Below the pieces are notes generated by a model. The model was not told the DNA's origin. It did no database searches and saw only the letters and a program-made list of their open reading frames with translations. A stretch of 64,000 nt of DNA, taken from IMG/VR virus record IMGVR_UViG_3300025011_000016. The stretch is one strand, 5' to 3'. Of the stretch, positions 3,749-50,917 are shown one piece after another; within the stretch, counting starts at the first letter, position 1; every line of letters starts with the position of its first letter. Origin of the DNA: a virus. Taxonomy: Duplodnaviria > Caudoviricetes. The translations under genes and the position numbers were made by a program.

Positions 3749-3829
3749 TTCCATCAGTTCGTATTATATTTTATTAGACCACGAACTTTATATTAAGATA
3801 ATGAGTTAATTAATAGGAGGTAAAAACAA

Positions 3830-4642
3830 ATGGCGTTTAATACAAATAATGGTCAGAACAATTCACGTGAAGCTGCTAATGTTAACACTAAAGGACTTTC
3901 ATTCTTTAACAAAGATGGATACGATGGTGGAGCCGCATTCTTAATCGGGTATTGGAATGGTCTAATCTCATTGAGGATGCATCCTGCCCTAGAATTGAGC
4001 AAGCAAACTGAAACAAGAAAATTTGATTATGAGAAGGTAGTATCTACCGCGTTGACTCCTGAAAAAGCTTTTATTCTTGCTACAAAAATCGAAAAAGAAA
4101 TTCTTCCGGCTATTGAAAAAGATGAGGCTCATTCCGTTGGTATTCCAGTTGGAAGTGATTCATTGTTGATCGTTTCAACCGGTAAAAAATTAATAGGATC
4201 AATTGCGCCATATATTGCAATTCATAAGTCTCTTGATCCTAAAACCAAACTACCTTCTATGAGTATGTATTATTCATTTAACTCAGACATAAGCATTGAC
4301 AACTACGATGAAACTACCGGCGCATTTGAAATGGGACCTAGTCTCAATGCCGAGCTAATGGTATTCCTTAATGTCTTAAAGACATCCATTATCGGACTCG
4401 GAAACTCAACAGTCCACGCATCACGTTGTGTAGACAAATACTTTAAAGACAAATTAAACAGTGACATCGGTGAAATTGCTGGTAAACTTGGTATAACCAT
4501 TACCGGCCCACAAAAGAATTCATATGGTCGTGGAGATATTTTCTCTAATGGTGGAAGACAGGAGAATTCATCTCGAACTGAACCTCAGACTAATGTTGAA
4601 AATCTGAGTAATATTGATGATATTGAGAAGTTTCTAAACTAG
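3830..4642 (+). CDS. Conserved jumbo-phage protein, possibly ssDNA-binding
   Basis: AGGAGG RBS; beta-rich core, low-complexity linker and acidic tail (NIDDIEKFLN) as in SSBs; function inferred only. Confidence 0.4.
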   Translation: MAFNTNNGQNNSREAANVNTKGLSFFNKDGYDGGAAFLIGYWNGLISLRMHPALELSKQTETRKFDYEKVVSTALTPEKAFILATKIEKEILPAIEKDEAHSVGIPVGSDSLLIVSTGKKLIGSIAPYIAIHKSLDPKTKLPSMSMYYSFNSDISIDNYDETTGAFEMGPSLNAELMVFLNVLKTSIIGLGNSTVHASRCVDKYFKDKLNSDIGEIAGKLGITITGPQKNSYGRGDIFSNGGRQENSSRTEPQTNVENLSNIDDIEKFLN

Positions 4643-4643
4643 A

Positions 4644-4784
4644 ATGGGATTTCTTGGTTTTGAATCTAAACGTGAAAAAAATCTTAGGTTACAATTATTA
4701 GATGCTCAAAATGAAATTGGTAGATTAAAAGCCGAGAAGGAAGGTATTCCATTTTTCGGCACAAAATATTCTGATTCTGAGTAA
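4644..4784 (+). CDS. Possible 46-aa protein (MGFLGFESKR...)
   Basis: Short ORF directly after the preceding stop; weak RBS. Confidence 0.35.
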   Translation: MGFLGFESKREKNLRLQLLDAQNEIGRLKAEKEGIPFFGTKYSDSE

Positions 4785-4837
4785 AATTATGTGTTAATAC
4801 GAGACTTATAAATAGTGGCGATAACCAAGCCTGTTAA

Positions 4838-4968
4838 TAATATTTATAAGTTGTAAAAAATCTTTATCGACTAACGTAAATAAAGATTTTCGCCGTTGGT
4901 CGGACGGTTTAAAGAACCTTAAACGGTTAAGTTATTATGGTATCTAACTAATACTACTAACACGACAG
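4838..4968 (+). ncRNA. Orphan TnpB omegaRNA scaffold / element right end without tnpB
   Basis: Near-identical to the 3' ends of both tnpB elements (13519-13649 and 49444-49574, approx.), ending in the same CTAACACGACAG. Confidence 0.8.
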
Positions 4969-5094
4969 GACGATAGAATTAAAATATCCGCCGATGATAT
5001 AAGAAGAAGAGTAAATTCATCTAGATAAAATTAATAATGGGCTATAAAATAATATAGCCCATTATTTTTTTACTGTTACTAAGGAGGTTATTAT

Positions 5095-5793
5095 TTGTCA
5101 AATGAATTTACAACAAAAGATGAAATTATCTTTATAACATATGATGATGTCATTAAGAGTCGCAATCCATTTATTCTTAATCAAATATTACAAAAGTATA
5201 AATCATATTATAATGATTTCTTAGATTTATCCCAGATAGAGAATTTGAATAAGAAACAACTTGATTTATTTTGTCTTAAACGTCAACATAAAAATATATT
5301 TCATACACTTGCAAAAAAGGAATTTGATTGTAATACGGCTATGAAAGAAATTAGTGATAAATATTATGATATGTTTATTGAATCTGAATTATTGACTATA
5401 GGTAAATCATTGAGCTTTATTCTACATCAAAAATTTACTAAGAAGATATATATTCATAGTCAAGAATATGATAAGAAAATCCACTTAGACATTCAGATGA
5501 ACTATAACGATATGGACAAAGTTAATTATGTCACGGGCAACTTAATTAATGTTATTAATACTATCGATGGTATTACCTCATATATACTTGCTGATATTAT
5601 GGATGTATCAGCTTTATTGGCTACTGATAAGATAGCTTATACTAATATTCTAGTTGCTAACTATGGATACAATTTTACGTATATTGATAATAAGTTAAAT
5701 CTTCGAATGAATTTAGATGACGCTATAAAAGAGAGAATATTTAAATTTGCTACATTCATGCCAATTGATATTGTAAAAAGTGATTTTAAATAA
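5095..5793 (+). CDS. Hypothetical protein (possible degenerate HAD-like fold)
   Basis: TTG start with AAGGAGG; N-terminal IIFITYDDVI resembles HAD motif I but lacks the canonical DxD. Confidence 0.55.
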   Translation: MSNEFTTKDEIIFITYDDVIKSRNPFILNQILQKYKSYYNDFLDLSQIENLNKKQLDLFCLKRQHKNIFHTLAKKEFDCNTAMKEISDKYYDMFIESELLTIGKSLSFILHQKFTKKIYIHSQEYDKKIHLDIQMNYNDMDKVNYVTGNLINVINTIDGITSYILADIMDVSALLATDKIAYTNILVANYGYNFTYIDNKLNLRMNLDDAIKERIFKFATFMPIDIVKSDFK

Positions 5794-5867
5794 ACTTAAA
5801 ATATTATAAAATACTACGGGTAAAACAATGTCTTAATGAATCTAACGAAATAATAGGAGGTAAACTA

Positions 5868-7679
5868 ATGGATTATTGTACTGACGGTTGTGGTTATACT
5901 GGTGAGAGTTATAAACGGAGGATTATAAATGGAGAGAACATCTTGAGTAATGAAGTAGTAATGGGCGGTGGTGAATATATTCCACTCGGGTTTCGAGGCA
6001 TACCTGAAGTTAAAAAAAATACAGAGTATCAATGGAATATATTGAGTGAGGACGAGTTTAAACAGCGAATACTCAATGTATTTAGTCAAGTATCATCGGC
6101 TTTAGTGAAAACTCTTGGTCCCTATGGATCTACGACTTTGATCGAACGTTTTGGTGAAATGTGTATCACAAAAGACGGCTGGTCGGTATTGAAGAAGATC
6201 CATTTCACTGAAGAAATTAATAATCATATCTTACAATTGTTATTTAATATAAGCTCGCAAATTATATTAAAAATCGGTGATGGAAGTACATCTTCGATCG
6301 TAGCAGCCGATTCAATTTTCAATAATCTTAGTAAATGTGAGGAATTAAAAACTATTAGATCCAAAGATTTAATGGATGTTGTAAAACATTGTGTTGAGCT
6401 AATAACGGGTATCATCTTAATTAATTCTACTAAGATAGATCCTATTAAAGATCCTGAATTTTCTGATATCTATAAACTTGCTATAATTTCAACGAATGGA
6501 AATAAAGAGGTTTCAGAAATGATACGCTTTATTTATGCCGATACGGGAAATTCCAGTATCGAATTTAATAAATCCAGAACGGGTAAAACTAACTTCGAGA
6601 TAGTTAACGGTTACAAATGCATGATAAATTATATGGACCCGATATTTATTACTAATGATGCGGGTACATGTGATATTACCAAACCGATGATGTTAATGTT
6701 CAATCATAAGATTGAAATGATTCATTATGAGAAAATAATACAACCTCTTATACAAGAGGCTCTTAATTCCGATAGAAGAATTGTTGTGATAGCTCCATAT
6801 TATGATAATCAATTGTTAAATCTAATCCGTCGTAATAGTAATATAGAATTTAGAGCAACTCAAAAATGTACAGTTGTGTATACAAAAGTGGCGTTAATAA
6901 GTGATATGCATAATGAATATTTTAATGATTTCTGTATGATGACCGGAGCTATGATGATTAATGAATCTGCGGCTGAGGATATAATTGAAGGTAAAATTAA
7001 TCTTGAAGAATATGTTGGAGAAGTTGGTAAGATTTCAATCGGCGATAAAACCAGCTTAATAAAAGATTGTTTTAAGATGAATACTGACGAACATCAAAGA
7101 TATATGAATGATGCTGTCTCTAAATATAAACGAGTTGAAGAAACTCACAGTCAACTCGGAGTAGTTAATTCGGAACTATATGATCTCAAACAACGAATTT
7201 CTAAATTACGTGGAAAAATGGGAATAATATCCGTCGGTGGTTATTCCACACTTGAAAAGGATAGTAACTTCGACCTTGTTGAAGATGCGGTTAAATCTTG
7301 TGAATCTGCATATAATTATGGATTCAATATTGGTGGGAATTTGGCGATCCCTATTACTATACAAAAACTATTATGTAATGATTTCGGTATACCTGAACTT
7401 GATAAAATCGTTTTGAGATTATTTGATACTGCTTTCAAAGAAGTATTCTTTAAAGTATTAAAGAATAAATATACTCATGAATCTGATGTATATATTAATA
7501 GTTTAGTAAACGAAGCAATTGATCGGAGACAATGTTGGGATTTGATTAACGAGAAATTCTCCGATGATGTCATCAATTCATGCCATACTGATATTGAGAT
7601 ATTAAAAGCATCAACATCTATAATCTCTTTGCTGATATCTAGTAATCAATATATATCTATTCCACAACCAACTGAATAA
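5868..7679 (+). CDS. groEL: Phage GroEL-like chaperonin
   Basis: KTLGPYG, ITKDGWSVLK, GDGSTSS, EDAVKS..A..GGN motifs. Confidence 0.9.
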   Translation: MDYCTDGCGYTGESYKRRIINGENILSNEVVMGGGEYIPLGFRGIPEVKKNTEYQWNILSEDEFKQRILNVFSQVSSALVKTLGPYGSTTLIERFGEMCITKDGWSVLKKIHFTEEINNHILQLLFNISSQIILKIGDGSTSSIVAADSIFNNLSKCEELKTIRSKDLMDVVKHCVELITGIILINSTKIDPIKDPEFSDIYKLAIISTNGNKEVSEMIRFIYADTGNSSIEFNKSRTGKTNFEIVNGYKCMINYMDPIFITNDAGTCDITKPMMLMFNHKIEMIHYEKIIQPLIQEALNSDRRIVVIAPYYDNQLLNLIRRNSNIEFRATQKCTVVYTKVALISDMHNEYFNDFCMMTGAMMINESAAEDIIEGKINLEEYVGEVGKISIGDKTSLIKDCFKMNTDEHQRYMNDAVSKYKRVEETHSQLGVVNSELYDLKQRISKLRGKMGIISVGGYSTLEKDSNFDLVEDAVKSCESAYNYGFNIGGNLAIPITIQKLLCNDFGIPELDKIVLRLFDTAFKEVFFKVLKNKYTHESDVYINSLVNEAIDRRQCWDLINEKFSDDVINSCHTDIEILKASTSIISLLISSNQYISIPQPTE

Positions 7680-8540: not shown

Positions 8541-10630
8541 GTGTTAATGTCAAATGATGATATACGTTCAGTTATATTAGTTGATGAATGGGAACCTGAA
8601 GAAAGGGATGTGATTATCCGACATGATGGAAAACTAGTAATAATACCATTTGACAAAATATTTAACAAGGATAATATAACAAGTTTAAATACTTTTGTTA
8701 TTAAAAAAGAATCATATGTGAAACGTTTGGATCATGTACTGAATAAAGATGGCACTATATCTAAAGGTATATGTCATTATCTAAATTATTTCATTAAGTA
8801 TTATGATTTAGATAATGAGTTATTATTGTCATATATAAAACTCAAATACATTATTGACAATAAGAAAAAGTCTATTAAGTTAATATCTTTCATCAAGATG
8901 TTGTATTCTATTCTGTTTACAGAATCATTAAAGAATAAAATACGACACTTAGTAGAAGACAATTACCATGTTGATGTTACTTCACATAATGGTATTAAAT
9001 ATACCAAATCAATGGAATTTACAAATGAACATGCAAAACTATTAATGATGATCTCAATGAGTATGAAGATAATGGTTCCTATCATATTTCATTTTATCAA
9101 TTCGTCATCTATGTTAAAGGAACCGAATTATATCTTTCAATTTTATGAACGATTGTTCTATATGTATAAATATGATGAAGAGGTTGATATCTATAATAAA
9201 CTATGGGTATCTACATTGGCTAAAGTTAATGTGAATGCTACAAAACATCGAGTTATATGGGACCAGCGAGAAATATTTGGAACAGATCCGTTAATAGAGC
9301 TTGATAAACTATTAAAGGAGAAGATAATTTCTGAAACTATGTTCAAATATACATTTGATAAAAACATTATCAGTTTTAACAGTGTGGTAAAATAATCTAA
9401 TGCCACCTTTTCTTTAACTGACGGGAAGTTCCTTATAGCTTAAACTACTTAATCGTAATAATGTTTAAGATTGGATAATCCGCAGCCAAGATTCTTATAT
9501 AAGAATAAGGTTCAACGACTAGAGTGTGACTCGTAGATCTATAGTTTAGATTGAAATAAGAAAACTCATCTTAATTAAGATGAGAAGATATAGTCTTATA
9601 TCCTATATAACTATAGGGAAGTTCATAAGAGAACTGCATAGATTAACAACCTATGTGAACACGATGCTTAGAAAAACAGCTTGGTTACTTCATACGAGAA
9701 CCTTATGAATTCTCATTAATTGAGTTAAACAATAAAAAAGATCTCGACGGTTTTTTATAGAAGCCGGTTTTCTCTTAACTGACGGGAACTTCCTTATAGC
9801 TTAAACTACTATAAGTAATAATGTTTAAGATTGGACAATCCGCAACCAAGATTCTTAATACAAGAATAAGGTTCAACGACTAGAGTGTGACTCGTAGATT
9901 TATAACTAAATCGAAGTGGAGAAACTTCATAATATTATGAAGAAGATATAGTCTATTATCCTAAAGTAATTTAGGGAAGTTCATAAGAGAACTGTATAGA
10001 GTTATAATCTATATGAATATAAAGTTATCAGGATTAGATAAGCTTGAGATTAACAGTAATAAGATTGATGAATCTTTAATTATATTATCTGGGATTAATA
10101 TAAAGAAAACTATTAAGAGAATTAAGAATAAAATGAAAGTTAAGATCAGTGAAGATGAATTAGAATATTATAAGATCAATCATCACATTAATAAATTTCA
10201 TGTTAGTCTCATATTCTTTTTCTATGCTAGACATTTTGGTAATTATCGAGATCTTAATCTATTAACCCGAAGACAATATTTAACCTTACTAATACTTCTT
10301 AAACGTAAATTACAAATCCAAGGAAATACTTACTTACCCCAGGTTTTAACAAGTAACATTGAAGGTAAATTAAATACTCGTACAATTCAAAATACTAAAT
10401 TCTTAATGAAGATTGAAAATTCTTCTATATATCAATCATTAATGCAAGATAAATTTTCAACTTTAGAAGAATTAAAGAAATCTAATCTAATACTTAATCT
10501 ATTATCAACTATTCTTAATACAACATTTACATGTGTTGATTATGATAATCGAGACAAGTTGGGTACTACATTGGATATTAACTCTGATATGATATCCGAT
10601 GAGTTTCTTAATTTCTTGAATCAATTATAA
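8541..10630 (+). CDS. Putative non-virion RNAP promoter-specificity subunit (AR9 gp226/phiKZ gp68-like); spliced, exons 8541-9388, 9667-9751, 10025-10630 (about 512 aa)
   Basis: Removing two introns gives one continuous frame ...NSVV-LEKQLGYF...KKDLDG-LSGLDKLE...; size and position two genes after the chaperonin match AR9 gp228-gp226 synteny as recalled. Confidence 0.65.
9389..9666 (+). ncRNA. Group I intron (ORF-less)
   Basis: P1 GUGGU/GCCAC with U.G at the 5' splice site; core elements GACGGGAA, AATCCGCAGCC, GTTCAACGACTAGA, AAGATATAGTC; terminal G; P10 UUAGA/UCUAA. Confidence 0.9.
9752..10024 (+). ncRNA. Group I intron (ORF-less)
   Basis: P1 CGGU/GCCG; same core elements as the 9389 intron; terminal G; restores the frame DG-LSG. 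Confidence 0.9.
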
Positions 10631-10638
10631 CAAATCAT

Positions 10639-10676
10639 TAATAGTAGTGAATCTTTTCGATTCACTACTATTAATA
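10639..10676 (+). terminator. Long inverted repeat (terminator-like hairpin)
   Basis: TAATAGTAGTGAATC-TTTTC-GATTCACTACTATTA. Confidence 0.55.
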
Positions 10677-10713
10677 AGGAGGAATTCTATATGTATATAA
10701 AGATGAATAAATT

Positions 10714-11742
10714 ATGAATAATCTTGAGATGAAAAACCACTTAAGAAATAAATTATTACAAATTCAATCTGCCAAACAAAATGGCCCTAAACAAATCTTA
10801 TTAAGATGTCCAGTTTGTTTAGATTCACAAAAAGATCTTTCACATGGGCATTTTTCTGTTAAGATAGATATGTTCAATGATGAACCTGTAATATTTCATT
10901 GTTTTCGATGTGATATTAGTGGTATTCTCACACCAACTATGTTGCGTTCATTTAAGATTAATGATTTACAATTAAACAGTGGATTATTATCTTATAATAA
11001 AGCATCTTTAGGTACTAATAACAAATCTTTTACTTTATATAATAACAATCTAAATTTAAGAGTTCCAACACCTAGTGATAATGAAAGAACTTCATTAAAA
11101 CAAAAATATATTGAAGGAAGACTGGGTGTAAAATTTACCATAGAAGAATTGGTTAATCTAAAGGTTGTGTTTAATTTAGGAGAATTCTTAAAATTTAATG
11201 GTATTGATACTTTAACTACAAATAAATATAAAGCTAGATTATTACATAATGACTATGTGGGGTTTTTAACTGCGAGAAACGAGTTTATAAATTTCAGAGA
11301 TATTACTGGAAGAAATGAGAGATATGATAAATATAACGTATATAATAATCTGGATAACACTCGAAAGTTTTATACTATACCAAACTCAATAGATCTTTTG
11401 ACGCGTGATAAAATTACTATTAATATAGCTGAAGGTGTTTTTGATATCTTAGGTATATATCATCATTTATACGAAAAGGAACATAAGAATATTATCTATA
11501 CTAGTGTAAATGGTTGTGGTTTTGTATCTGTAATAAAATATTTTATTCAAATGGGAATCTTTGGTAATGTGGATGTAAATATTTATTCTGATAAAGATAA
11601 ATCACCTATATTTTATAAGAAGTTATATTATGAATTAAAAGACTGGATACATACAATTAATCTATTCTATAATGAAATAGGTAAGGATTATGGTGTTACT
11701 AAAGATAAAATAAAGATTATCAAACGAAAAATAGAAAGGTGA
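10714..11742 (+). CDS. DNA primase-like protein (Zn finger + Toprim)
   Basis: CPVC..HCFRC Zn-binding domain; Toprim IAEGVFD and YSDKD. Confidence 0.75.
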   Translation: MNNLEMKNHLRNKLLQIQSAKQNGPKQILLRCPVCLDSQKDLSHGHFSVKIDMFNDEPVIFHCFRCDISGILTPTMLRSFKINDLQLNSGLLSYNKASLGTNNKSFTLYNNNLNLRVPTPSDNERTSLKQKYIEGRLGVKFTIEELVNLKVVFNLGEFLKFNGIDTLTTNKYKARLLHNDYVGFLTARNEFINFRDITGRNERYDKYNVYNNLDNTRKFYTIPNSIDLLTRDKITINIAEGVFDILGIYHHLYEKEHKNIIYTSVNGCGFVSVIKYFIQMGIFGNVDVNIYSDKDKSPIFYKKLYYELKDWIHTINLFYNEIGKDYGVTKDKIKIIKRKIER

Positions 11743-12059
11743 ATTATTATATGAATAAACGTATAACTGAGTTAACACGATATTTTATAAAAGGCTCATT
11801 GGTTGGAGAAATTGTCCCATCTAAAATAGATTCGTTTCTAAATGAATTGAATACCTTAATTATAAAATACTGCGGTGAAAAGTATTATCTTAGTAGTGAA
11901 GTGGAGGCTGTTGACTCTGAGACATATAAGAGTAAAACTGAGGAAATAAATGAAAAAGAAAGTGAAGGATTAGTCACATGTCCATATACCTCAGAATGGT
12001 GTGATAAGCTAAAGGATAAAGAACTTAAGTCAACTTTCATACCTCCTAAAACGACATAA
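11739..12059 (+). CDS. Hypothetical protein
   Basis: Start overlaps the primase stop (GTGA); 106 aa. Confidence 0.55.
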   Translation: MNYYMNKRITELTRYFIKGSLVGEIVPSKIDSFLNELNTLIIKYCGEKYYLSSEVEAVDSETYKSKTEEINEKESEGLVTCPYTSEWCDKLKDKELKSTFIPPKTT

Positions 12060-12191
12060 AAAATGAAGATGGATAAACGATCATTTAAGATTGTTTATCC
12101 ATCTTCTTATATAAAAAAGAGGAGGACTGTGGGAAAAGGTAGTGAGCAATCTACCCTTTCTTAATTATCTGTTTAGTAAATTATTTACCAA

Positions 12192-12246
12192 TATATAACA
12201 AAAGACATATAATTATTTTTTTTAATTATATGTCTTTTGTTATATA
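12192..12246. repeat. Perfect 24-bp-arm inverted repeat abutting the tnpB element
   Basis: TATATAACAAAAGACATATAATTA-T-run-TAATTATATGTCTTTTGTTATATA. Confidence 0.75.
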
Positions 12247-13649
12247 GTCTGTGCTTTAAGGAAACTTAGAGAAATAACTTAATCAGTAGTCTTAATAATT
12301 CATTCCTAATAAGATATTATTATACTTATAACAAATAATATAAGAAAGGGGGTGAAGATAAATGATTAAGACTTTTAAAACGAGAATACGACCAACTAAA
12401 GAACAAGAGATATATTTAAACAAATGCTTTGGATATAGAAGATTCATATACAATAATGCTTTAGAATATTTTAATACCCTTTTAGAGCATAATGGTAATA
12501 TTATTGATAAAACATTAAAGAAGTTCTTTGATAAGTTTGATTATATTACTCATATATACTCTAAGAAAGAAAAGGAACCGGGATTTGAATGGACTCAAGA
12601 GTATAATAAGTCAATAAAGAATGAAGTGGCTAGTGATTTTAATATAGCTATTAATAAGTTCTTTAAAGATATTAAAGACAAGAAACGATGTAAATTACAT
12701 TTTAAAAGAAAGATTCATGGAAATGGTTCTTTTAGAATATACAAGACGAATAAAGGTAATGTTAAAATTATTGATAAGAAGTTATTCTCTTTTATTATTA
12801 ATAGAGAATACGGTCACATGCCATTGAAAACTTTTGAAGATATAAGCTTTTTATATCACTATGATATAAAAACAATGACTATTAGTATGAAGAATTTTAA
12901 ATATTATGTATCATTCACTTATGAAATAGATATCCCAAAGCATAAACATAAGAAAAATATGGTAGGTATAGATTTAGGAATACATAATCCAGTAGTTTGT
13001 TTTGATGGAAACGATATCATAAATCCTAAATTTCCGAAGGGAATTATTAAGAAACTAGAGAAGAAAGTTGATAAACTCTCAGTAATAGTTTCTAAAAAGA
13101 AGTATGATAAACGTAACCCATCAAAGAACTATATAAAAGCGAGAACCAAACTTAATGATATTCACGTCAAAATAGTGAATATCAGAATGGATTATATTCA
13201 GAAGGTATCTACATTCTTAGCTAAGACTTATAGAAACGTAATAGTTGATGAGTTTAGTTTTAAAGAGTTATTAACAGAGTCCGATGGTAATACGCGTATA
13301 AATAGAGGTATACACAGAGTTGGTGACTTTATGTTTACACAGGTGTTAAAATATAAATGTCACTTTTATGGTAGTGAATATATTTTAGCATTACCTAATA
13401 GTACCATTACATGCTCTGAATGTAATCATAAACTTAAAACTAAGTTAAAGTTATCTCAAAGAATCTTTAATTGTCCAATATGCGGACATATAGATGGTAG
13501 GGATAACAATGCTTCTATTAATATTTATAAGTCATTTAAAGGATCTTTATTAACTAACGTAAATAGAGATTTCGCCGTTGGTCGGACGGTTTAAAGAACC
13601 TTAACGGTTAAGTTATTGTGGTATCTAACAAGTACTACTAACACGACAG
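12243..13649 (+). mobile_element. Truncated IStron-type element (tnpB + omegaRNA, intron core missing)
   Basis: Similar to the 47917-49574 element from TATAGTCTGTGCTTTAAGG (end of intron S element) to CTAACACGACAG. Confidence 0.85.
12362..13594 (+). CDS. tnpB: TnpB (IS200/IS605-family RNA-guided nuclease)
   Basis: N-terminal KTRIRPTKEQ HTH, GIDLG (RuvC-I), CSEC/CPIC Zn finger, RDNNASINI (RuvC-III). Confidence 0.9.
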   Translation: MIKTFKTRIRPTKEQEIYLNKCFGYRRFIYNNALEYFNTLLEHNGNIIDKTLKKFFDKFDYITHIYSKKEKEPGFEWTQEYNKSIKNEVASDFNIAINKFFKDIKDKKRCKLHFKRKIHGNGSFRIYKTNKGNVKIIDKKLFSFIINREYGHMPLKTFEDISFLYHYDIKTMTISMKNFKYYVSFTYEIDIPKHKHKKNMVGIDLGIHNPVVCFDGNDIINPKFPKGIIKKLEKKVDKLSVIVSKKKYDKRNPSKNYIKARTKLNDIHVKIVNIRMDYIQKVSTFLAKTYRNVIVDEFSFKELLTESDGNTRINRGIHRVGDFMFTQVLKYKCHFYGSEYILALPNSTITCSECNHKLKTKLKLSQRIFNCPICGHIDGRDNNASINIYKSFKGSLLTNVNRDFAVGRTV

Positions 13650-14596: not shown

Positions 14597-16759
14597 CTAC
14601 AATATAGATTGGGTTTTCATCCATGCTGAAATCAAGCCTGCAAAGTGCTGTTTACAGGAATCGGACATTGGATGTATATCGTCGTACATCCATATTTGCC
14701 GAAGTGATAAGTCATGCACCCACACACCATCAACTTGACGAGGGTTTTCGTTTAGATTTTCAAGATTTGAACCCACATGATTCGACCCGTTATAACCTGT
14801 ATCGTGCCATACATGAGACACATCCCAATATCCAGTGGTTGTAATTTGTGTCCTTGCCCTTACGTCACTTTCTTCCCATAGCTTATAAAGTGGAAATCCA
14901 AAGTAATTAGATGCCGTTTCCTCTGCTTCCCAAACATGTCCTAACTGATATCTACTGTCGTCATTGTCGTAATGCCCAACCATTAGTATTTTTATTCGTG
15001 GTTTACGTAAACGTATTTGTTGTACCAGATAAATAAACGCACCCACAGCATAATGCCTATCATTTGAAGTTGCTGGGACGCTAGTATAGGTTAAAGCAGA
15101 AGCGTCTCCTGTGGCATCATTCCTAAAATGCTCGAAAACAATTGCATCCGAAGTAGCAATGTATGACTCAATACGTCCAAGCATAGCACCTGTGATTTTC
15201 CCAGTTATGCTTAAATCACCTTCGATATCCATGGAATCATCCCAACAGTAAGAATATGCCAACCATCGCATACTATTATATGTTGCACCATTATTCGCAT
15301 AAACGTCAATTGGTTTTAAAGCCGGAATCCCTATAACAGGTGTTACAGGGTCTACACTAACATATGTATCTGCAAGCATATCCCCATAGCCAATAACACT
15401 TGTTACTTCTCCTTCAGTATAACCCTTTGCTATAAGATAGGCTTTACGATCCGTTGTTTTCCAGCAATCAAACAACCGCCTACGTTCTTCCTGTGTCATT
15501 GATAATGTACGCAGTACATTTGCCATCCATAGACCAGTTATTCCAAGGTCATCACCCAACTCAGAGGTATCATAAACAGAACCACCTATACGCATCATTG
15601 ACGAACCGACAGCTTTATTAGTCACGGTTGCTCCAATTGCCGTACCGACTAGGATAGGGTGCCCTTGTTCAGGAATTGATGTTCCTAACCACAAAATATT
15701 TTTACCGATGTATTGTCCATTCCCTTGTAGTGATAGTTCTTGCGAAAGTGCTTGCACTTCTCCATATGCTGCAAGTTTTCTTTTCTCAGAATAATAATTT
15801 ACAGTAAGACTTGACGTTAAATTTGTAACATTACTACCGTCAATCGCCTTAATAATAACTGCGACATATAGGTAATCACTATCAAAAGCGTATTCCGTAC
15901 ACCAATCTTGTATAAATTCAAAAGGCTGTCCATACCCATCGTTATTAGCATTCACGACAAGCTGAAAACCAGTTGCCGCCTCAAATCCGCTTAGATTATA
16001 CGTGGGAAGCACAATAAATGCCCTCGTATTGATAATAAACTTATTACCAGTAGCATCAATATTACCAGTTATCAGATTAGCATAAGCACTTATGACATCC
16101 CCACCATACCTAACAGTAGTTTCAACCCTTGACAATATAACTGTGTTATGACTTATAACACTTAAAATGCTATCTAAATCAATCCCAGTTATATCCGCAT
16201 CACTATTATCTTTTACTATAATGTATAAATATTTATGGCTTAACGGGTTTATATACACAGCGTTCGACGCAATCCATCCACCTATTGTTGTAATAGCAGT
16301 TCCCTTTATATCACACCCTTTTATAAGAAACTGATAACCTAGCTTGCAGGACAGGTTAGCGACGAATTCGGACTCAAGTATCACCCTAGCCCTTATGTTT
16401 GACACAACTTCTGAACCATCAGCATCGTTAAACGTGCCAATTGTTAAATCAGCATAAGATTCGGTTGCTGTGCCAGACAACTTATCGCCAACTAAATTAT
16501 CTATTTTGCCAATCTGCCCTCTTATTGAGGTTCCTATATTTGCATAGGTTGCTCCGTCTGCACCAACTCTACCGTCAATTAACTCAGCATCTCCAGTAGT
16601 GCTTCCTGCCGAAAGTGTTGCAAGATTTGTTATTCTTGCGCTTTCTAAATCCAAGTCTACTTGACGTGCTTTTGTTGCTAACTCCTGCACATTCTCTGCC
16701 TTATACGTCATAAGATCTTTCTTAATACCAGCACTTGGATCATACCTAGATTGCGACAT
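14597..16759 (-). CDS. Tail-fibre/receptor-binding-like protein with SGNH esterase domain
   Basis: N-terminal ELIDGRVGADGATY virion-anchor motif; SGNH blocks LWLGTSI, HFRND, DDIHP; GGGAGG RBS before MSQSRY. Confidence 0.65.
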   Translation of the reverse strand: MSQSRYDPSAGIKKDLMTYKAENVQELATKARQVDLDLESARITNLATLSAGSTTGDAELIDGRVGADGATYANIGTSIRGQIGKIDNLVGDKLSGTATESYADLTIGTFNDADGSEVVSNIRARVILESEFVANLSCKLGYQFLIKGCDIKGTAITTIGGWIASNAVYINPLSHKYLYIIVKDNSDADITGIDLDSILSVISHNTVILSRVETTVRYGGDVISAYANLITGNIDATGNKFIINTRAFIVLPTYNLSGFEAATGFQLVVNANNDGYGQPFEFIQDWCTEYAFDSDYLYVAVIIKAIDGSNVTNLTSSLTVNYYSEKRKLAAYGEVQALSQELSLQGNGQYIGKNILWLGTSIPEQGHPILVGTAIGATVTNKAVGSSMMRIGGSVYDTSELGDDLGITGLWMANVLRTLSMTQEERRRLFDCWKTTDRKAYLIAKGYTEGEVTSVIGYGDMLADTYVSVDPVTPVIGIPALKPIDVYANNGATYNSMRWLAYSYCWDDSMDIEGDLSITGKITGAMLGRIESYIATSDAIVFEHFRNDATGDASALTYTSVPATSNDRHYAVGAFIYLVQQIRLRKPRIKILMVGHYDNDDSRYQLGHVWEAEETASNYFGFPLYKLWEESDVRARTQITTTGYWDVSHVWHDTGYNGSNHVGSNLENLNENPRQVDGVWVHDLSLRQIWMYDDIHPMSDSCKQHFAGLISAWMKTQSIL

Positions 16760-17186
16760 AACTGACTCCCTCCCCACTTATAGATGAATCAATATAGATT
16801 TGATTAGCATTGGCTACAGCAAATGTGAATGCTTCCTTGGCACCAAGCTTCACCCCATAAACAGCCAATGAAACATTTACTCCACCGGCGAAGACACTTC
16901 CTGTATTAGTATCCAAACCGATAACAGTTACCTCCCGACATGGTATATTAGGTAATTGAGTTCTGGTTCCAGCAGTAGTGACTAATTTTAATGCCCCAGT
17001 TAATGACGTACTACCACATAATGCTCTATATATACTAGATAACCATCCTCTGGCTCCAGTACCCCCAGTTGCTTGTGATACACCAGTAGCATCAGTTCCG
17101 TCTAATATAGCTGCCGCAGAATGCGTTCCATCAGGATTTTCTACAGCTTTAAATGGTACACCACCAATAAGAATTATTTTATCCAT
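16746..17186 (-). CDS. Small beta-rich virion accessory protein
   Basis: 146 aa, overlaps the SGNH gene, same GC-richer composition. Confidence 0.6.
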   Translation of the reverse strand: MDKIILIGGVPFKAVENPDGTHSAAAILDGTDATGVSQATGGTGARGWLSSIYRALCGSTSLTGALKLVTTAGTRTQLPNIPCREVTVIGLDTNTGSVFAGGVNVSLAVYGVKLGAKEAFTFAVANANQIYIDSSISGEGVSYVAI

Positions 17187-17296
17187 TTTAACTTCAACTC
17201 CTTTGTATTATGTTATTTTAATATTATGTTTAATTCATTACCACATGAAGATTAATTATACTATTTTATAAGTATTGGTTATATATCTTTACCTCT

Positions 17297-17308
17297 AACA
17301 ATTAACTA
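17297..17308 (+). promoter_or_regulatory. AACA-N6-TA late-promoter motif (also at +5824, +18543, +26786, +29797, +45078, +50923; -39638, -41907, -44682)
   Basis: Same motif shortly upstream of many operon starts; matches the AR9 late promoter consensus as recalled. Confidence 0.65.
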
Positions 17309-17337
17309 ATAATAACTAAAATAGGTGGTGTATATTT

Positions 17338-18528
17338 ATGGGACATTTAATTGATGAAAAAAGGTTTATAAACAATAACATCTTTAAATATGAAGAGAGG
17401 ATGAATTCTCAATACTCAAGATTTCTAGATAAAACCCCTACATTTATAACGTATTACAATATAAATAATATTACATCTATAACAGATACAGGTTTTTTAA
17501 ATGTGGAGCGTATTATTGATTATAATTCTCCTATACGATTTAAGCGAATTGATGATCTTCCAATTTATGGACTTGATACAATTCTGCTAGATTTAACAGA
17601 TGACGAAATAGGCCTAGATACTTCATATGATGGTGAAGTAGTTATATTACCTAATACCATACGGCCACTTCCTAATGATTGTTTTACGATAACATATCTA
17701 GATAGTAATTATTTATTTATGGTAACAACTGTTAATTATGATACCATTAAGAGTAATAACTATTATAAGATTTCATTTGTTATTAGATCGTTAACACCCG
17801 ATATTAAAAATCAATTATTATTACAGGTTGAAGAAGTATATAACTGTGTTCTAACTAATATAGGAACGCAGGAGAAATGTATAATTCGATCTGATATATA
17901 CGAGAAAATTATTCTTATGAATGAAATGTATAAAGAAATCTGTGAAAAATATAAAATATTGTTCTATAATATAAGATATAACAGTTTTATGTATATTGAT
18001 GAAATCAGCCATATAAAATACTATGATAAATATCTAACATTCTTTATTAATAAACATCAGTTATTTAATGAACGATATGAATATGATACATTGTTTTTAG
18101 TAAATGAGGATGACAATCATAAATTTCCTCTTGAATACGATAAGTCATTTTATCACATTTTAGAAAAAAATAAAAAGAGTATGATTCCAGAGCATATTAA
18201 TTATGCAACTGGTAGTGTAGCTAATACATCATCTATATTCAGGTACTATAATGACGTATATGTAAAGAGTATATATTTCTCAGATATTGGTTTGCCATAT
18301 ATTGATGATATACTTATTAATAGCATAATCAATAGTATACCATCAGATAAGGTTAGTTATAAAACAATTATTGATTATTTTAATAATAATGTGAATGTTA
18401 TCGATACATTTGATATGGGACCATTGGCTGAGAACGATTATATTGAGTACGATTTAAATTCATTCATTCTAATTCCTATGCTATTATTTATTCTCCGTGT
18501 GTACTATAATAAATTCATGGCGAATTAG
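17338..18528 (+). CDS. Putative virion structural (neck-like) protein
   Basis: 396 aa, preceded by the late motif; function inferred. Confidence 0.55.
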   Translation: MGHLIDEKRFINNNIFKYEERMNSQYSRFLDKTPTFITYYNINNITSITDTGFLNVERIIDYNSPIRFKRIDDLPIYGLDTILLDLTDDEIGLDTSYDGEVVILPNTIRPLPNDCFTITYLDSNYLFMVTTVNYDTIKSNNYYKISFVIRSLTPDIKNQLLLQVEEVYNCVLTNIGTQEKCIIRSDIYEKIILMNEMYKEICEKYKILFYNIRYNSFMYIDEISHIKYYDKYLTFFINKHQLFNERYEYDTLFLVNEDDNHKFPLEYDKSFYHILEKNKKSMIPEHINYATGSVANTSSIFRYYNDVYVKSIYFSDIGLPYIDDILINSIINSIPSDKVSYKTIIDYFNNNVNVIDTFDMGPLAENDYIEYDLNSFILIPMLLFILRVYYNKFMAN

Positions 18529-46592: not shown

Positions 46593-49500
46593 ATGACTAT
46601 ACTACAAAAAGATTACAGTAGTAATTATTCAATAAAAGAATTAGCTATAAATGACATAGCTCCTAAATATTTTGATATGGTTGATATTAATCAATTAAAT
46701 ATTGGAATGTTTGGTTATAGTACAGAAATGATATCCAATACGACTGAAGATACATTTAATGCAGTTTCAATATTCTTGAAAGAAATGTTTCCTAATAAAG
46801 CTATATTACCAGAATCAATTTATAATTATGCATCATTATTTCAATTAGATAATTTATTTGCAACGCCTGCAAGTACGTATATGATGTTATTTATCAATGA
46901 GAAAGATATAGTTAATTTGGGGATAAATAAAGGTTCTTTCTATGAGTTTATATTAGATTCCGATCTAGTAATAGACATTGAAGATAAACGATTTATGTTG
47001 GATTATAATATAGTTATAACAGCCAAACCATATAAGACAGATTATATTTTTACAGCTCAATATAAATTAGATTTTACAAATTCATTGAGTGATGAAAATG
47101 GTCCGTATATATTAAAAGCTAAAAGAATAAATTATACTGGGAATAAATATTTAGGTTTATTTGTTAAGGTTAGACAATTAAGTAAAACATCTATAAGTGA
47201 ACAAGTATTCACTAATGATAAAATTAACTTTCCTACATTCTCACTTAATTTTGTAGATCAATTAGCAAATTTTGAAATATATTATAAGTCACCAGATTCA
47301 TCTGATTTTATTCAACTGAAAAAAAGAGTTGTCAATACACCGGCTATAGATACTCCATTCTGTTATTATACCGTTAAAAATCAAAATGAAATTGTTATCA
47401 GTTTCTCAACACTCAGTAAATACTTTCAACCAAAATTTAATTCGGAATTTAAAATAGACCTGTATACAACGACTGGAAGTGCTGGTAATTTTCCTGCATA
47501 TACAGGTACTGAAGTAAATGTTATTCCTAAATCTGAAATATATACGTATAATAATGGTATTGTCATATTTGCTATACCACAGTCTGATAGTGTAGGTGGG
47601 TCTGATTATTTAGACATTGAAGAATTAAGATCGATTGTAGTTGAAAAATTCTCTACTGTTGATTCATATACTAATGAGAATGATTTACAAGTATATTTCA
47701 CTAATTTTAAATATAGATATGGTAATGAGATATTATTTATAAAAAAAAGAGATGACGCATTTGAAAGATTATTTTCATCATTTGCGTTACTGAAAGATGA
47801 GAATAATGATATTTATCACACTAACACATTACATGCAATTATTATACCAAGTGAATTCGATACCATATATATTCAAAATAAGTTACTAGTTTTAAAACCA
47901 GGACATCTTTTTAGATTCTAATATGAGTCTCGTTGCATAGTAATATGCAATTGCAACTACTTTAATTGCGGGAAACTCCTTATAGCTTAAACTGATATAA
48001 ATATAAACAAAGTTTAAGATTGGACAATCTGCAGCCAAAGATCTATTTATAGATTTAGGTTCAACGACTAGAACGTAAAGTTCGTAGGGCTCAAGTGAGT
48101 GGGTGAGAATCCCTTAAATCGAAATGGGTAGCCCCAGTATAACAACGTTATAATGGGTGAAGATATAGTCTGTGCTTTAAGGAAACTTAGAGAAATAACT
48201 TAACCGTAAGTCTTACTAATTCATTCCTAATAAAATATTATTATGGGTATAACAAATAATATAAGAAAGGAGGTGAATAAAAAAAATGATTAAGACTTTT
48301 AAAACAAGAATACGACCGACTAAAGAACAAGAAGTATATTTAAATAAATGCTTTGGATATAGACGATTTATATATAATAATACCTTAGAGTATTTTAATA
48401 AGATCCTAGAATTCAATGGTAATATTATTGATAAGGATTTAAAGAAGTTCTTCGATAAATTTGATTTTATTACTCATATATATTCTAAGAAAGAAAAAGA
48501 ACCGGGATTTGAATGGACTAAAGAATATAATAAAACTGTAAAGAATGAAGTGGCTAGTGATTTTAATATAACTGTCAACAAGTTCTTTAAAGATATTAAA
48601 AATAAGAAACGGTGTAAACTTCATTTTAAAAGAAAGATCCATGGTAATGGATCATTCCGAATATACAATAAGAATAAAGGTAACGTTAAAATTATTGACA
48701 AAAACAAATTCTCTTTTATTATTAATAGAGAATATGGTCATATGTCATTGAAAACTTTTGAAGATATAAGTTTCTTATATCAATATGAAATAAAAACAAT
48801 GACTATTAGTATGAAGAATTTTAAATATTATGTATCATTTACATATGAGTTAGATGTCCCAAAGCATACTCATACGAAAAACATAGTGGGTGTAGATCTA
48901 GGAATACTTAATCCGGTAGTTTGTTTTGATGGAAAAGATATCATAAATCCTAAATTCCCAAAGGGAATTATTAAGAAACTAGAGAAGAAAACCGATAAAC
49001 TTTCAACGATAGTTTCTAAAAAGAAGTATGATAAGTACGATCCATCGAAAAACTATATAAAAGCGAGAACCAAGCTTAATGATATTTATATTAAAATAGT
49101 GAATATCAGAATGGATTATATTCAGAAGGTTTCAACCTTCTTAGCTAAGACTTATAGAAACGTAGTAGTCGATGAGTTTAGTTTTAAAGAATTACTTACA
49201 GAATCTGATGGTATTAAGCGTATTAATAGGGGTATTCATAGAGTTGGTGCCTTTACGTTTACACAAGTGTTAAAATATAAATGCTACTTTTACGGTAGCG
49301 AATATATTTTAGCGTTACCTAATACTACTAACACATGCTCTGAATGTAACCATAAACTTAAAACTAAGTTAAAGTTATCTCAAAGAATCTTTAATTGTCC
49401 AATATGCGGGCATATAGATGACAGAGATAATAATGCGGCTATTAATATTTATAAGTCGTTTAAAGGATCTTTATTAACTAACGTAAATAAAGATTTCGCC

Positions 49501-50917
49501 GTTGGTCGGACGGTTTAAAGAACCTTAAACGGTTAAGTTATTGTGGTATCTAACGAATACTACTAACACGACAGATAAGGTAGATACCAATGCCGTTGAG
49601 TTAATTCCTATCCTGACTATTAAGGATGATATTGGTGTATTAACTGATGACTATATATTCACAAATTTATTTCTAGTTACAGTTAGTAAATCTCCAGGGA
49701 TTATTGGTTACTATATTAATTCAATTGATGATAAATTGTCTCTAGATTACGAGTATGTGAATTCAGATTCCATAGTACAATTCATATGTAATAACATCAA
49801 TATATATAGGAATGCAATTGCAGGTGAGGATGTATACAAGATTACAGTCGCATTAACTCCAACCTTAGATGACGGTGAAGTAATGGCAACTAAAGTTGCC
49901 AATATTATTACAGACTTAGGAATATTAAAGATAAAAATAATGGTGGAAGATAATGGAGTGGAGATTTGCTATTTAGATACAATAATGACAGATTTCGATG
50001 AATTAACGAATATATATACATTTGAAGCAACTTTGAGTACTACTGATTACATGACTTTCGACCAATATATGCAAGTTATGAATATTAATAATACTATCGA
50101 TGGGATTATTTTAGTCAATACTTTAATACCTATGTATAATTGTAAATTAAATGTTTATGCTTTCTATAAGTATAGTGAACTTGACGAAGAGGGAAATCTA
50201 TATAAAATACCCCATATATATGATCATATTGCTGAATTACAACCTTATACTTTAACAAATAAATATTCAACAGTAGATAAAAAAGTTAATTTCATAAGTC
50301 CTCTTAATATCTTAAGAAGTATGGTAAACTTCACATCCGCTAATAATGTTGATGGGTATGATGTTACCATCAGTGCAGTTCCATTTGTATCAGCACCTAT
50401 GATGAAAGATCCAATTAAGTATAATTCTTTTATGAAAACTATATTGATTCAGTATGAATATATGCAAAATGCATTATCTAAAGTCACTAATAATTATGGT
50501 ATAGATATGAAATTTTATAATACTTATGGGAGATCAAATAATTTTATTGCAGGTGATCTAGGGGTTCAACTAGATAATGTCAATACTAGAATATATATTA
50601 GAGTTAAACCTAGCGTTGGTTCAGATGTCGATGATTTAATTCTATCATTAAAAGTATTCATCAAGAAATTTATTGAAAGTATAAATGCTTTAGGTTCAAA
50701 TGGGATTTATATATCCAATTTAATTACTAGTGTAGAAACAAATTTTTCCACCGTTGAATATATGAGGTTTGGTAATCTTAATGATTACGATTCTTCGGTT
50801 CAAATAATAGAGAACCGAACTCCCGATATAACATCATTGTCTAAGATTGATAGACAAAATTATGTGCCTGAATATCTAACAATTAGTTTAGACGATATTA
50901 TTATTGATCTATTGTAG
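46593..50917 (+). CDS. Baseplate wedge-like protein, spliced; exons 46593-47916 and 49575-50917 (888 aa)
   Basis: T + AT joins to give ...PGHLFR-Y-KVDTNAVEL...; TTGSAGNF motif of gp6-like wedge proteins. Confidence 0.75.
47917..49574 (+). mobile_element. IStron: group I intron carrying tnpB and omegaRNA, no tnpA
   Basis: P1 AGAU/GUCU; core GCGGGAA, CAATCTGCAGCC, GTTCAACGACTAGA, AAGATATAGTC; tnpB inserted after S; terminal G of ...ACGACAG. Confidence 0.9.
48286..49518 (+). CDS. tnpB: TnpB (IStron-encoded)
   Basis: Highly similar to 12362-13594; GVDLG, Zn finger, DRDNNAAINI. Confidence 0.9.
   Translation: MIKTFKTRIRPTKEQEVYLNKCFGYRRFIYNNTLEYFNKILEFNGNIIDKDLKKFFDKFDFITHIYSKKEKEPGFEWTKEYNKTVKNEVASDFNITVNKFFKDIKNKKRCKLHFKRKIHGNGSFRIYNKNKGNVKIIDKNKFSFIINREYGHMSLKTFEDISFLYQYEIKTMTISMKNFKYYVSFTYELDVPKHTHTKNIVGVDLGILNPVVCFDGKDIINPKFPKGIIKKLEKKTDKLSTIVSKKKYDKYDPSKNYIKARTKLNDIYIKIVNIRMDYIQKVSTFLAKTYRNVVVDEFSFKELLTESDGIKRINRGIHRVGAFTFTQVLKYKCYFYGSEYILALPNTTNTCSECNHKLKTKLKLSQRIFNCPICGHIDDRDNNAAINIYKSFKGSLLTNVNKDFAVGRTV

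What the first reader, a model, noticed from the sequence alone, without database searches (positions are those of the whole stretch)
4838..4990. Orphan omegaRNA with its own guide: possible trans-acting, multi-guide TnpB system in a phage
About 130 nt matching the tnpB 3' end/omegaRNA scaffold sits alone between genes, and homology starts and stops almost where an omegaRNA would. It ends in the same CTAACACGACAG, followed by a different flank (GACGATAGAATTAAAATATC). With the two tnpB loci this gives three scaffolds with three guides. If transcribed, either TnpB could load it and target a third sequence (competing phage, host, or an empty site). I saw no matching target in this window by eye.
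Basis: partly seen in the sequence, partly recalled or inferred. Interest (0 to 1): 0.78.

Follow-up and report, generated by a model that had tools for sequence, protein, structure and literature searches.

The report
Gene-less IStron stump keeping TnpB guide scaffold
The "orphan guide RNA" is real, but it is the 193-base leftover of a mobile intron-transposon hybrid (an IStron) that landed in a small phage gene and later lost its ribozyme and its nuclease gene; its guide-RNA scaffold still looks usable by the phage's other TnpB nucleases, which is a known kind of situation.

Summary
Window 4838-4968 is 91-95% identical to the last ~131 nt of every tnpB element of this phage. It ends in the same CTAACACGACAG and is followed by its own flank.

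- **IStron family.** The tnpB elements are group-A IStrons (group I intron plus tnpB plus omegaRNA, no tnpA) of a ~250-kb groundwater jumbo phage.
- **Insertion site.** A 70%-related phage shows the empty site. The piece is a 193-nt insertion (4776-4968) after TCTGAT, inside a small conserved ORF. Joining 4775 to 4969 restores a 63-aa frame.
- **Content.** It holds short decayed relics of the tnpB 5' and 3' coding ends plus a well-kept scaffold, with no ribozyme core and no left end. It probably descends from a tnpB-deleted IStron lineage, of which a second copy is present in the sample.
- **The guide.** It is simply the downstream flank, so the only target that the sequence supports is the uninterrupted allele of the same gene. 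I found no other target.

The scaffold is structurally intact, lies in sense orientation before a terminator, and could be loaded in trans. I could not test expression or loading, and nothing shows selection for a multi-guide system.

The kind is known: gene-less IS200/IS605 derivatives with omegaRNAs, and ORF-less IStrons. This scan has already reported similar orphan scaffolds in other phage genomes.

The parts
4644..4784 (+). Truncated small ORF (46 aa). Codons up to 4775 are the original gene; TCT GAG TAA (4776-4784) comes from the inserted element.
   Evidence: It is called as a 46-aa gene in all contigs of this phage. The homologue in relative L023 is 62 aa. The first 44 residues are about 68% identical.
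4770..4775 (+). TCTGAT, a TAM-like motif directly 5' of the insertion; it also gives the U before the splice-site position.
   Evidence: The three full IStrons follow TTAGAT, ATTGAT and ATAGAT. Here position -5 is C, not T.
4776..4968 (+). The 193-nt IStron remnant, which is the whole insertion.
   Evidence: Joining 4775 to 4969 gives an open 63-aa frame (...KYSD|DDRIK...) that matches L023 (...RYMDDDRRYK...). Homology to a second tnpB-less copy also begins at 4776.
4776..4786 (+). TCTGAGTAAAA, a probable relic of the tnpB 5' coding end (about nt 31-42 of the ORF).
   Evidence: It matches 10 of 11 bases of TCTGACTAAAA in the sequence upstream of the second tnpB-less copy. That sequence itself aligns 14/15 to the start of the ligase-IStron tnpB.
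4787..4837 (+). Decayed relic of the tnpB 3' coding end (second CxxC of the zinc finger and the RuvC-III DNNAA..INIYK region), with frameshifts and stops.
   Evidence: It is 62-69% identical and collinear with the tnpB copies. Against tnpB1, 0 of 2000 shuffles reach the observed score, and the best local hits in tnpB1 and L006 fall at the collinear position. Orphan-unique changes fill 18 of 53 columns.
4838..4968 (+). omegaRNA scaffold (right end of the element), ending ...CTAACACGACAG.
   Evidence: It is 91-95% identical to the tnpB-linked copies. The consensus fold has 37 pairs; the orphan breaks 2, and the tnpB-linked ligase copy breaks 3. Its MFE is -27.7 kcal/mol, z -2.6, and it scores 141 bits with the covariance model.
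4969..4988 (+). Would-be guide, GACGATAGAATTAAAATATC. It is the first 20 nt of the cut-off 3' part of the small ORF (4969-5028).
   Evidence: The flank differs from those of all other copies. It has only a self match in the 118-kb record.
5033..5075 (+). Intrinsic terminator that closes the transcription unit containing the remnant.
   Evidence: A 14-pair stem followed by a T run. The relative L023 has an equivalent hairpin and T run after its small ORF.
12243..13649 (+). tnpB1 element (tnpB at 12362-13594). It has an intact TnpB and scaffold but lacks the ribozyme core; homology starts inside the intron S element (ATATAGTC).
   Evidence: There is no Rfam intron hit in 9300-12450.
47917..49574 (+). 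tnpB2 IStron, the full-length reference: group I core 47907-48192, tnpB 48286-49518, scaffold to 49574.
   Evidence: RF00028 scores 78.8 bits, E 7e-20. Pfam finds the TnpB domains. Joining 47916 to 49575 gives one 889-aa frame with a single, final stop.

Best explanation
Window 4776-4968 is a 5'-truncated, gene-less stump of a group-A (IS200/IS605-type) IStron. An IStron, most likely one that had already lost most of tnpB, inserted after TCTGAT in a small phage gene. A later deletion removed the ribozyme core and left the last ~190 nt, so the element cannot splice and the host ORF is now cut short at 46 aa. What survives intact is the omegaRNA scaffold (4838-4968). It lies in sense orientation between the truncated ORF and the operon terminator, so it should be transcribed as a 3'UTR. 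I infer that TnpB made by the sister IStrons can bind it. The resulting complex would carry the downstream flank as its guide and would therefore be specific for the uninterrupted allele of this same gene in a co-infecting relative. That is ordinary IStron/TnpB homing logic operating in trans, a guide-only hitchhiker. It is a by-product of element decay, not an evolved extra guide. Shown here: homology, boundaries, the empty site, an intact fold, and cognate TnpB genes. Inferred: transcription, TnpB loading, and cleavage of an empty allele.
For: - **Homology and shared end.**
- **IStron nature of the family.** tnpB2 carries a full group I core (RF00028, 78.8 bits), and its removal restores an 889-aa frame. 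The ligase and helicase copies have the same layout. All three full copies follow TWGAT and begin with TC.
- **Empty site.** Relative L023/L024 has a 62-aa ORF and a 77-nt spacer where the window has 46 aa plus 310 nt. Joining 4775|4969 restores the frame through DDDR. The 50%-identity relatives also lack the element.
- **Descent from a tnpB-deleted lineage.** A 285-nt contig at phage depth matches 4788-4905, including the diverged ex-coding stretch. It continues upstream into a relic of the tnpB start.
- **Scaffold kept.** Orphan-unique changes fill 8 of 133 scaffold columns against 18 of 53 in the ex-coding relic (Fisher p 3.5e-6). Only 2 of 37 pairs are broken, fewer than in a tnpB-linked copy. 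The 3' 75 nt carry a single unique change, in a loop.
- **Transcription context.** It runs in the same direction as its neighbours, with a terminator at 5033-5075.
- **Cognate nucleases.** Three tnpB genes lie in the 118-kb record. They align to ISDra2-type TnpB across the RuvC motifs.
- **Literature.** Gene-less IS605 derivatives often encode omegaRNAs that must be used in trans (PMC10055086). A PATE with IStron ends and ORF-less IStrons are both described (10.1101/2023.11.20.567912; PMC4227781).
Against: - The strong decay of the ex-coding relic seems to predate the orphan, because it is shared with the second tnpB-less copy. It therefore argues for constraint in that lineage (splicing or guide function) and not in the orphan itself.
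- On the orphan's own branch, the visible changes (4868, 4869, +T at 4887, the A-run) all fall in the scaffold's 5' stem-loop. That gives no sign of purifying selection.
- The motif before the insertion is CTGAT, not the TWGAT of the three full copies, so cleavage of an empty allele might be poor.
- The closest sampled relative differs from the guide at 8 of 20 positions at the homologous site.
- The left deletion end coincides with the original insertion boundary to within a few bases. I cannot explain this.
Confidence: 0.55

Rival explanations
1. Inert relic. The stump is transcribed or not, but TnpB does not use it productively, or no cleavable allele exists, and it persists only because nothing removes it. 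The intact look of the scaffold is inherited from a constrained ancestor, the splicing-competent ORF-less IStron, and the truncation is recent.
For: - All orphan-branch changes seen against the second tnpB-less copy lie in the scaffold, and only one lies in the 50-nt junk stretch.
- The TAM is non-canonical, CTGAT.
- It is a single copy with no left end.
- It is identical in all sampled contigs, so it is fixed.
Against: - The 3' 75 nt of the scaffold are essentially unchanged, and base pairing is kept or improved (GG to AA turns G-U into A-U).
- The sense orientation inside an operon makes transcription likely.
- TnpB is known to accept omegaRNA supplied in trans (10.1101/2023.11.20.567912 used TnpB in trans on a mini-IStron).
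Confidence: 0.35
2. Domesticated extra guide. The phage keeps the orphan scaffold because the TnpB-guide complex attacks a competing phage or a host sequence.
For: There are several TnpB copies and several guides in one lytic-type jumbo phage genome. One GAT+18-nt match lies in the rpsH gene of Methylocucumis oryzae.
Against: - The guide is exactly the cut-off continuation of the interrupted ORF, as expected for a passive flank.
- There is no second match in the 118-kb record or the fetched loci, and none in IMG/VR.
- The single bacterial match equals the chance expectation of about 1 for this A-rich 21-mer in 596 Gb (my estimate). It also has GAGAT where TWGAT is expected and lies in an unrelated reading frame.
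Confidence: 0.05
3. Cis-acting RNA element. The structured stump serves as a 3'UTR stabiliser or processing site for the upstream operon, or as a TnpB-binding decoy that titrates the nuclease.
For: It is a stable multi-hairpin fold placed between the last ORF and the terminator. In a studied IStron, TnpB binding to the scaffold changes the fate of the RNA (10.1101/2023.11.20.567912).
Against: Relatives manage the same operon end without it, and nothing is specific to this role.
Confidence: 0.05

Closest known systems
PATEs and other gene-less IS200/IS605 derivatives that encode an omegaRNA used in trans (Geobacillus stearothermophilus, PMC10055086; a PATE with IStron ends in C. difficile, 10.1101/2023.11.20.567912 fig. 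S3B)
   Same: It has no protein gene, keeps the right-end omegaRNA scaffold, has a flank-derived guide, and depends on TnpB encoded by sister elements.
   Different: PATEs keep both left- and right-end hairpins and are usually multi-copy and mobilisable by TnpA. This piece has no left end, is single-copy in the data held, and no tnpA was found in the 118-kb record.
Group A IStrons (CdISt1 / CdiIStrons, IS200/IS605 type; PMC4227781, 10.1101/2023.11.20.567912)
   Same: Its parents in this phage fit that description: insertion after a TTGAT-like pentanucleotide, a 3' end in ...CAG, a group I core at the 5' end, and tnpB plus omegaRNA at the 3' end. tnpA is absent, as in the C. difficile copies.
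   Different: The orphan itself has lost the ribozyme core and tnpB, so it cannot splice. The host is a jumbo phage, not a Firmicute chromosome.
ORF-less IStrons (BcISt1 variants of emetic Bacillus cereus, PMC4227781)
   Same: The nuclease/transposase ORF was lost by internal deletion while the element termini were kept.
   Different: Those variants keep the ribozyme and still splice. Here a further 5' truncation removed it.
ISDra2 TnpB-omegaRNA (PMC8612924; structures 8exa, 8h1j)
   Same: The TnpB is of the same type (phmmer E 4e-23 to 8bf8/8exa). The scaffold overlaps the tnpB 3' end and stops at the right-end boundary, and the TAM is TTGAT-like.
   Different: In ISDra2 the omegaRNA is encoded in cis with its tnpB. 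Here it stands alone.

Membership tests
TnpB omegaRNA (right-end guide RNA of IS200/IS605 elements) | Scaffold homologous in sequence and fold to the one encoded over the 3' end of a cognate tnpB | tested here: met
   It is 91-95% identical to four tnpB-linked copies. It keeps 35 of 37 consensus pairs and scores 141 bits with the covariance model.
TnpB omegaRNA (right-end guide RNA of IS200/IS605 elements) | Ends at the element's right boundary and runs on into unique flank that serves as guide | tested here: met
   All copies end ...CGACAG and then diverge.
TnpB omegaRNA (right-end guide RNA of IS200/IS605 elements) | Cognate TnpB with RuvC and zinc-finger domains present in the same genome | tested here: met
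   Pfam finds PF12323, PF01385 and PF07282 in both window copies. There are three copies in the record, and they align to ISDra2 TnpB across the RuvC motifs.
TnpB omegaRNA (right-end guide RNA of IS200/IS605 elements) | Transcribed, processed and bound by TnpB | not testable with these tools
   No RNA run is listed for this DNA. Only context is available: sense orientation upstream of a terminator.
TnpB omegaRNA (right-end guide RNA of IS200/IS605 elements) | A TAM-flanked target matching the guide exists | tested here: inconclusive
   The reconstructed empty site would read TCTGAT plus guide, but CTGAT differs from TWGAT. No natural empty allele or other target was found.
PATE / miniature IS200/IS605 element | Both left-end and right-end terminal structures retained | tested here: not met
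   There is no similarity to the IStron left end or intron core upstream of 4776 or inside the element.
PATE / miniature IS200/IS605 element | Multi-copy family of the same short element | tested here: not met
   The 4776-4845 part occurs once in the 118-kb record and in the fetched loci. One related tnpB-less copy is seen only as a short contig.
IStron (group I intron plus IS) | Group I ribozyme core | tested here: not met
   There is no RF00028 hit in 4400-5200, even at E up to 10. The parent copy tnpB2 scores 78.8 bits.
IStron (group I intron plus IS) | Insertion after a T-rich xTGAT pentanucleotide, 3' end ...CAG, and precise in-frame interruption of the host gene | tested here: met
   The junctions read TCTGAT|...|CGACAG, and the frame is restored by removal.

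The most novel reading that the evidence does not exclude
The stump is a minimal guide-only homing element. It encodes nothing but an omegaRNA, borrows TnpB from the five or more IStrons of the same jumbo phage, and so drives itself and its linked phage alleles into co-infecting relatives that carry the intact small gene. That would extend RNA-guided marker exclusion to a locus that holds neither an intron nor a nuclease gene.
Probability: 0.2. Interest if true: 0.6.

Novelty: new member of a known kind. Interest (0 to 1): 0.3.

Why it matters
If TnpB does load it, about 130 nt of RNA scaffold is enough for a piece of DNA to ride on the RNA-guided homing machinery of other elements. A phage with several TnpB copies would then automatically gain one more cut site against relatives each time an IStron decays. 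That bears on how guide-only loci, and ultimately arrays, could arise from transposon debris. As it stands, the locus is a clear, well-bounded example of IStron decay in a jumbo phage. The boundaries come from a natural empty site, which is useful for defining the TAM, the right end and the minimal scaffold of this TnpB family.

Tried and rejected
- **Close relatives in phage collections.** megablast of 3800-5900 against GenBank phages found nothing. The best TnpB hits there are only about 32% identical, and a distant blastn of the right end gave only a weak Nodularia phage hit. The search for related loci in IMG/VR with TnpB and with the 232-aa neighbour found nothing; records of the same phage appear to be withheld there.
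- **Pattern scans.** A 19-mer of the scaffold in IMG/VR gave one GC-rich chance hit, L004. A 20-mer in JGI metagenomes returned only a 1-kb fragment of the same phage's tnpB1 locus, L005. Two further IMG/VR scans for the second tnpB-less copy found nothing.
- **Whole large contigs.** I could therefore not fetch the ORF-less IStron.
- **RNA evidence.** No RNA holder is listed.
- **Empty allele in the source samples.** No contig joins across the element. These are contigs, so absence is not shown.
- **Rfam.** No family matches the orphan.
- **Sigma-70 promoter scan.** It gave only background-level matches, and the phage probably uses its own RNA polymerase.
- **Left-end remnant reading.** I first read TCT at 4776 as the retained IStron 5' terminus, making a mini-element with both ends. 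I rejected this after the second tnpB-less copy showed that TCTGAGTAAAA matches a tnpB 5' coding relic.
- **Free local alignment of the ex-coding stretch.** Alone it is not significant against the whole gene. Only the collinear test is significant.
- **L010.** It has the helicase 5' flank joined to the tnpB2 3' flank. I treated it as an assembly chimera and did not use it.

Full report
**1. The observation**

The 12-mer CTAACACGACAG occurs three times on the + strand, at 4957, 13638 and 49563, where 0.14 matches are expected by chance. The two distal sites lie 55 nt after the stop codons of two 410-aa ORFs (12362-13594 and 48286-49518). Both ORFs carry the three TnpB Pfam domains. Alignment shows that 4838-4968 matches the 3' end of both elements and that all three sequences diverge directly after ...CGACAG.

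The block is not an assembly artefact. The same sequence lies in at least six contigs from independent ENA, JGI and Logan assemblies of groundwater metagenomes.

**2. What the tnpB elements are**

The window belongs to a 118-kb IMG/VR record. That record is part of a phage of roughly 250 kb: the window's own proteins occur on contigs of 241,705 and 248,564 b. GC content is 30.6%.

Upstream of tnpB2, Rfam finds a complete group I intron core at 47907-48192 (RF00028, 78.8 bits, E 7e-20). Joining 47916 to 49575 fuses ORFs 46593-47921 and 49541-50917 into one 889-aa frame whose only stop is the final one. tnpB2 is therefore an IStron, a group I intron with tnpB and its omegaRNA at the 3' end.

Two further copies from the same phage have the same layout. 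One splits a NAD-ligase gene (L006) and one follows a helicase-like gene (L011). The three full copies follow TTAGAT, ATTGAT and ATAGAT and start with TC. That gives a TWGAT TAM, as in group A IStrons and ISDra2 (PMC4227781; PMC8612924).

No Y1 transposase was found in the 118-kb record. A third tnpB lies at the record's end.

tnpB1 is different. Its homology to the others starts inside the intron S element at 12243, and no ribozyme core lies upstream. It is a 5'-truncated copy that kept tnpB.

TnpB2 aligns with ISDra2-type TnpB across the RuvC-I, II and III motifs, so the nucleases look functional.

**3. What the orphan is**

The 232-aa gene downstream of the orphan has a 70%-identical homologue on contigs L023 and L024. 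In those contigs a 62-aa ORF is followed by a 77-nt spacer with a terminator. In the window, a 46-aa ORF is followed by 310 nt.

The window's 46-aa ORF (4644-4784) matches the first 44 residues of the 62-aa ORF. If 4775 is joined to 4969, the frame stays open to TAA at 5026-5028 and reads ...GTKYSD|DDRIK..., against ...GTRYMDDDRRYK... in the relative. So 4776-4968 (193 nt) is an insertion into a small conserved gene, directly after TCTGAT. More distant relatives (about 50% identity) have neither the small ORF nor the element.

Inside the insertion there are three parts:
- **4838-4968.** This is the well-kept scaffold.
- **4787-4837.** It aligns collinearly with the last part of the tnpB coding region (second CxxC and the RuvC-III DNNAA...INIYK stretch) at 62-69% identity, with frameshifts. 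Against tnpB1, 0 of 2000 shuffles reach the observed score. In free searches, the best hits in tnpB1 and L006 fall exactly at the collinear position.
- **4776-4786.** TCTGAGTAAAA matches a relic of the tnpB 5' end (see section 4).

There is no ribozyme core and no left end.

**4. A sister copy and the order of events**

I laid contigs of the source samples on 4300-5500. One 285-nt contig has the phage's depth (47.8 against 52) and matches 4788-4905. Within the diverged 4788-4837 stretch, the only listed difference is at 4833. At 4868, 4869 and 4887 the contig carries the consensus state of the tnpB-linked copies.

Upstream, the contig runs into unlike DNA. The last 30 nt of that DNA match the start of the ligase-copy tnpB at 14 of 15 positions. 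They then read TCTGACTAAAA, which matches the orphan's 4776-4786 at 10 of 11 positions.

This is a second, tnpB-deleted copy elsewhere in the genome. It is probably the 591-nt ORF-less IStron that other agents of this scan reported (e1-5389363, e1-5389376). I could not fetch it.

My reading of the order of events is as follows. An IStron lineage lost most of tnpB by internal deletion, and its coding relics decayed. One member inserted into the small ORF. A later 5' deletion then removed the ribozyme. How the left deletion end came to lie within a few bases of the original insertion boundary is unexplained.

**5. Is the scaffold still a usable omegaRNA?**

The consensus fold of five copies has 37 pairs. 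The orphan breaks two, and the tnpB-linked ligase copy breaks three. GG to AA at 4858-4859 turns two G-U pairs into A-U pairs, and the extra T at 4887 lengthens the same stem. The 3' 75 nt have one orphan-unique change, in a loop. The covariance model gives 141 bits, against 155-165 for the tnpB-linked copies.

Orphan-unique changes fill 18 of 53 ex-coding columns but only 8 of 133 scaffold columns (Fisher p 3.5e-6). Because the sister copy shares the ex-coding divergence, this contrast reflects constraint in the tnpB-less lineage. In that lineage the right end is also needed for splicing. It does not show constraint on the orphan itself.

On the orphan's own branch, the few visible changes lie in the 5' stem-loop of the scaffold. 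The data show an intact scaffold but no selection for it.

The element lies in sense orientation between the truncated ORF and a strong terminator at 5033-5075, so read-through transcription is likely. No RNA data exist for this DNA.

**6. The guide and its target**

The 20 nt after the right end are the first codons of the cut-off tail of the small ORF. The target that the sequence predicts is therefore the uninterrupted allele, TCTGAT followed by the guide.
- No other match with up to 5 mismatches and a GAT-type TAM exists in the 118-kb record or the fetched loci.
- The exact 20-mer is absent from IMG/VR.
- GAT plus 18 nt occurs once in 185,579 prokaryote genomes, in rpsH of Methylocucumis oryzae. 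It sits behind GAGAT and in another reading frame. For this A-rich 21-mer in 596 Gb I estimate about one chance match.
- The homologous site of the closest relative differs from the guide at 8 of 20 positions.
- No contig in the source samples joins across the element. This does not show that an empty allele is absent.
- The C at TAM position -5 departs from the T seen at all three full copies.

**7. Comparison with what is known**

- A PATE with IStron ends is shown in 10.1101/2023.11.20.567912.
- ORF-less IStrons and IStrons in Clostridium botulinum phages are in PMC4227781.

The present piece fails the PATE definition, because it has no left end and is single-copy. It also fails the IStron definition, because it has no ribozyme. 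It meets every sequence-level criterion of an omegaRNA.

This scan has reported similar stand-alone scaffolds in other phages (e1-5380349, e1-5346411, e1-5401876) and PATE cases (e1-5396197, e1-5449568).

**8. Verdict**

The piece is a decay product of a known kind of element, and it may still work as a trans-loaded homing guide for its own site. It is not an evolved multi-guide system. It is a new member of a known kind, of modest interest.

Noticed in passing
window 12243-13649: tnpB1 is a 5'-truncated IStron that keeps tnpB and the scaffold. Homology to the full copies begins exactly inside the conserved intron S element (ATATAGTC), right after a terminator hairpin. This hints at recombination within intron cores.
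   Followed up: partly
L011 16461-16486 (same phage, gyrase/topoisomerase A-like gene 15828-18230): The tnpB1 guide (GATGGAGATATTGTATTTAT) matches 17 of 20 positions behind CCTGAT inside this gene. Similarity is limited to 19 nt. It may be chance or a possible self off-target.
   Followed up: partly
L032 1987-2007 (-), Methylocucumis oryzae Sn10-6: A single exact match of GAT plus the first 18 nt of the orphan guide lies in ribosomal protein S8 (rpsH), behind GAGAT. This is about the number of hits expected by chance.
   Followed up: partly
window 9412-9523 and 9775-9884 (between ORFs 8541-9395 and 10013-10630): Two stretches are about 80% identical to the P-Q-R part of the tnpB2 intron core. 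The relative L023 has one uninterrupted 508-aa gene here, so the window's gene seems split by introns. Rfam gave no hit at E up to 0.01 in 9300-12450.
   Followed up: partly
window 20237-20453 (-) and 22297-22575 (-): Two further group I introns score above Rfam's gathering threshold (69.8 and 65.7 bits).
   Followed up: no
L010 (ENA k127_43395, 3952 b): This contig joins the helicase-site 5' flank to a TnpB 98% identical to tnpB2 and to the tnpB2 3' flank. It is either an assembly chimera across the repeat or a real recombinant between two IStron loci.
   Followed up: no
window 4874-4955 in runs X1/X2: Summed contig depth over the scaffold core is about 15 times that of the single-copy flanks. 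At least four different downstream flanks are seen, so the sample holds many more right-end copies than the seven or so I could place.
   Followed up: no
G000:C1:118301-118474 (+): A third tnpB runs into the end of the 118-kb record. The assembly probably broke on this repeat.
   Followed up: no
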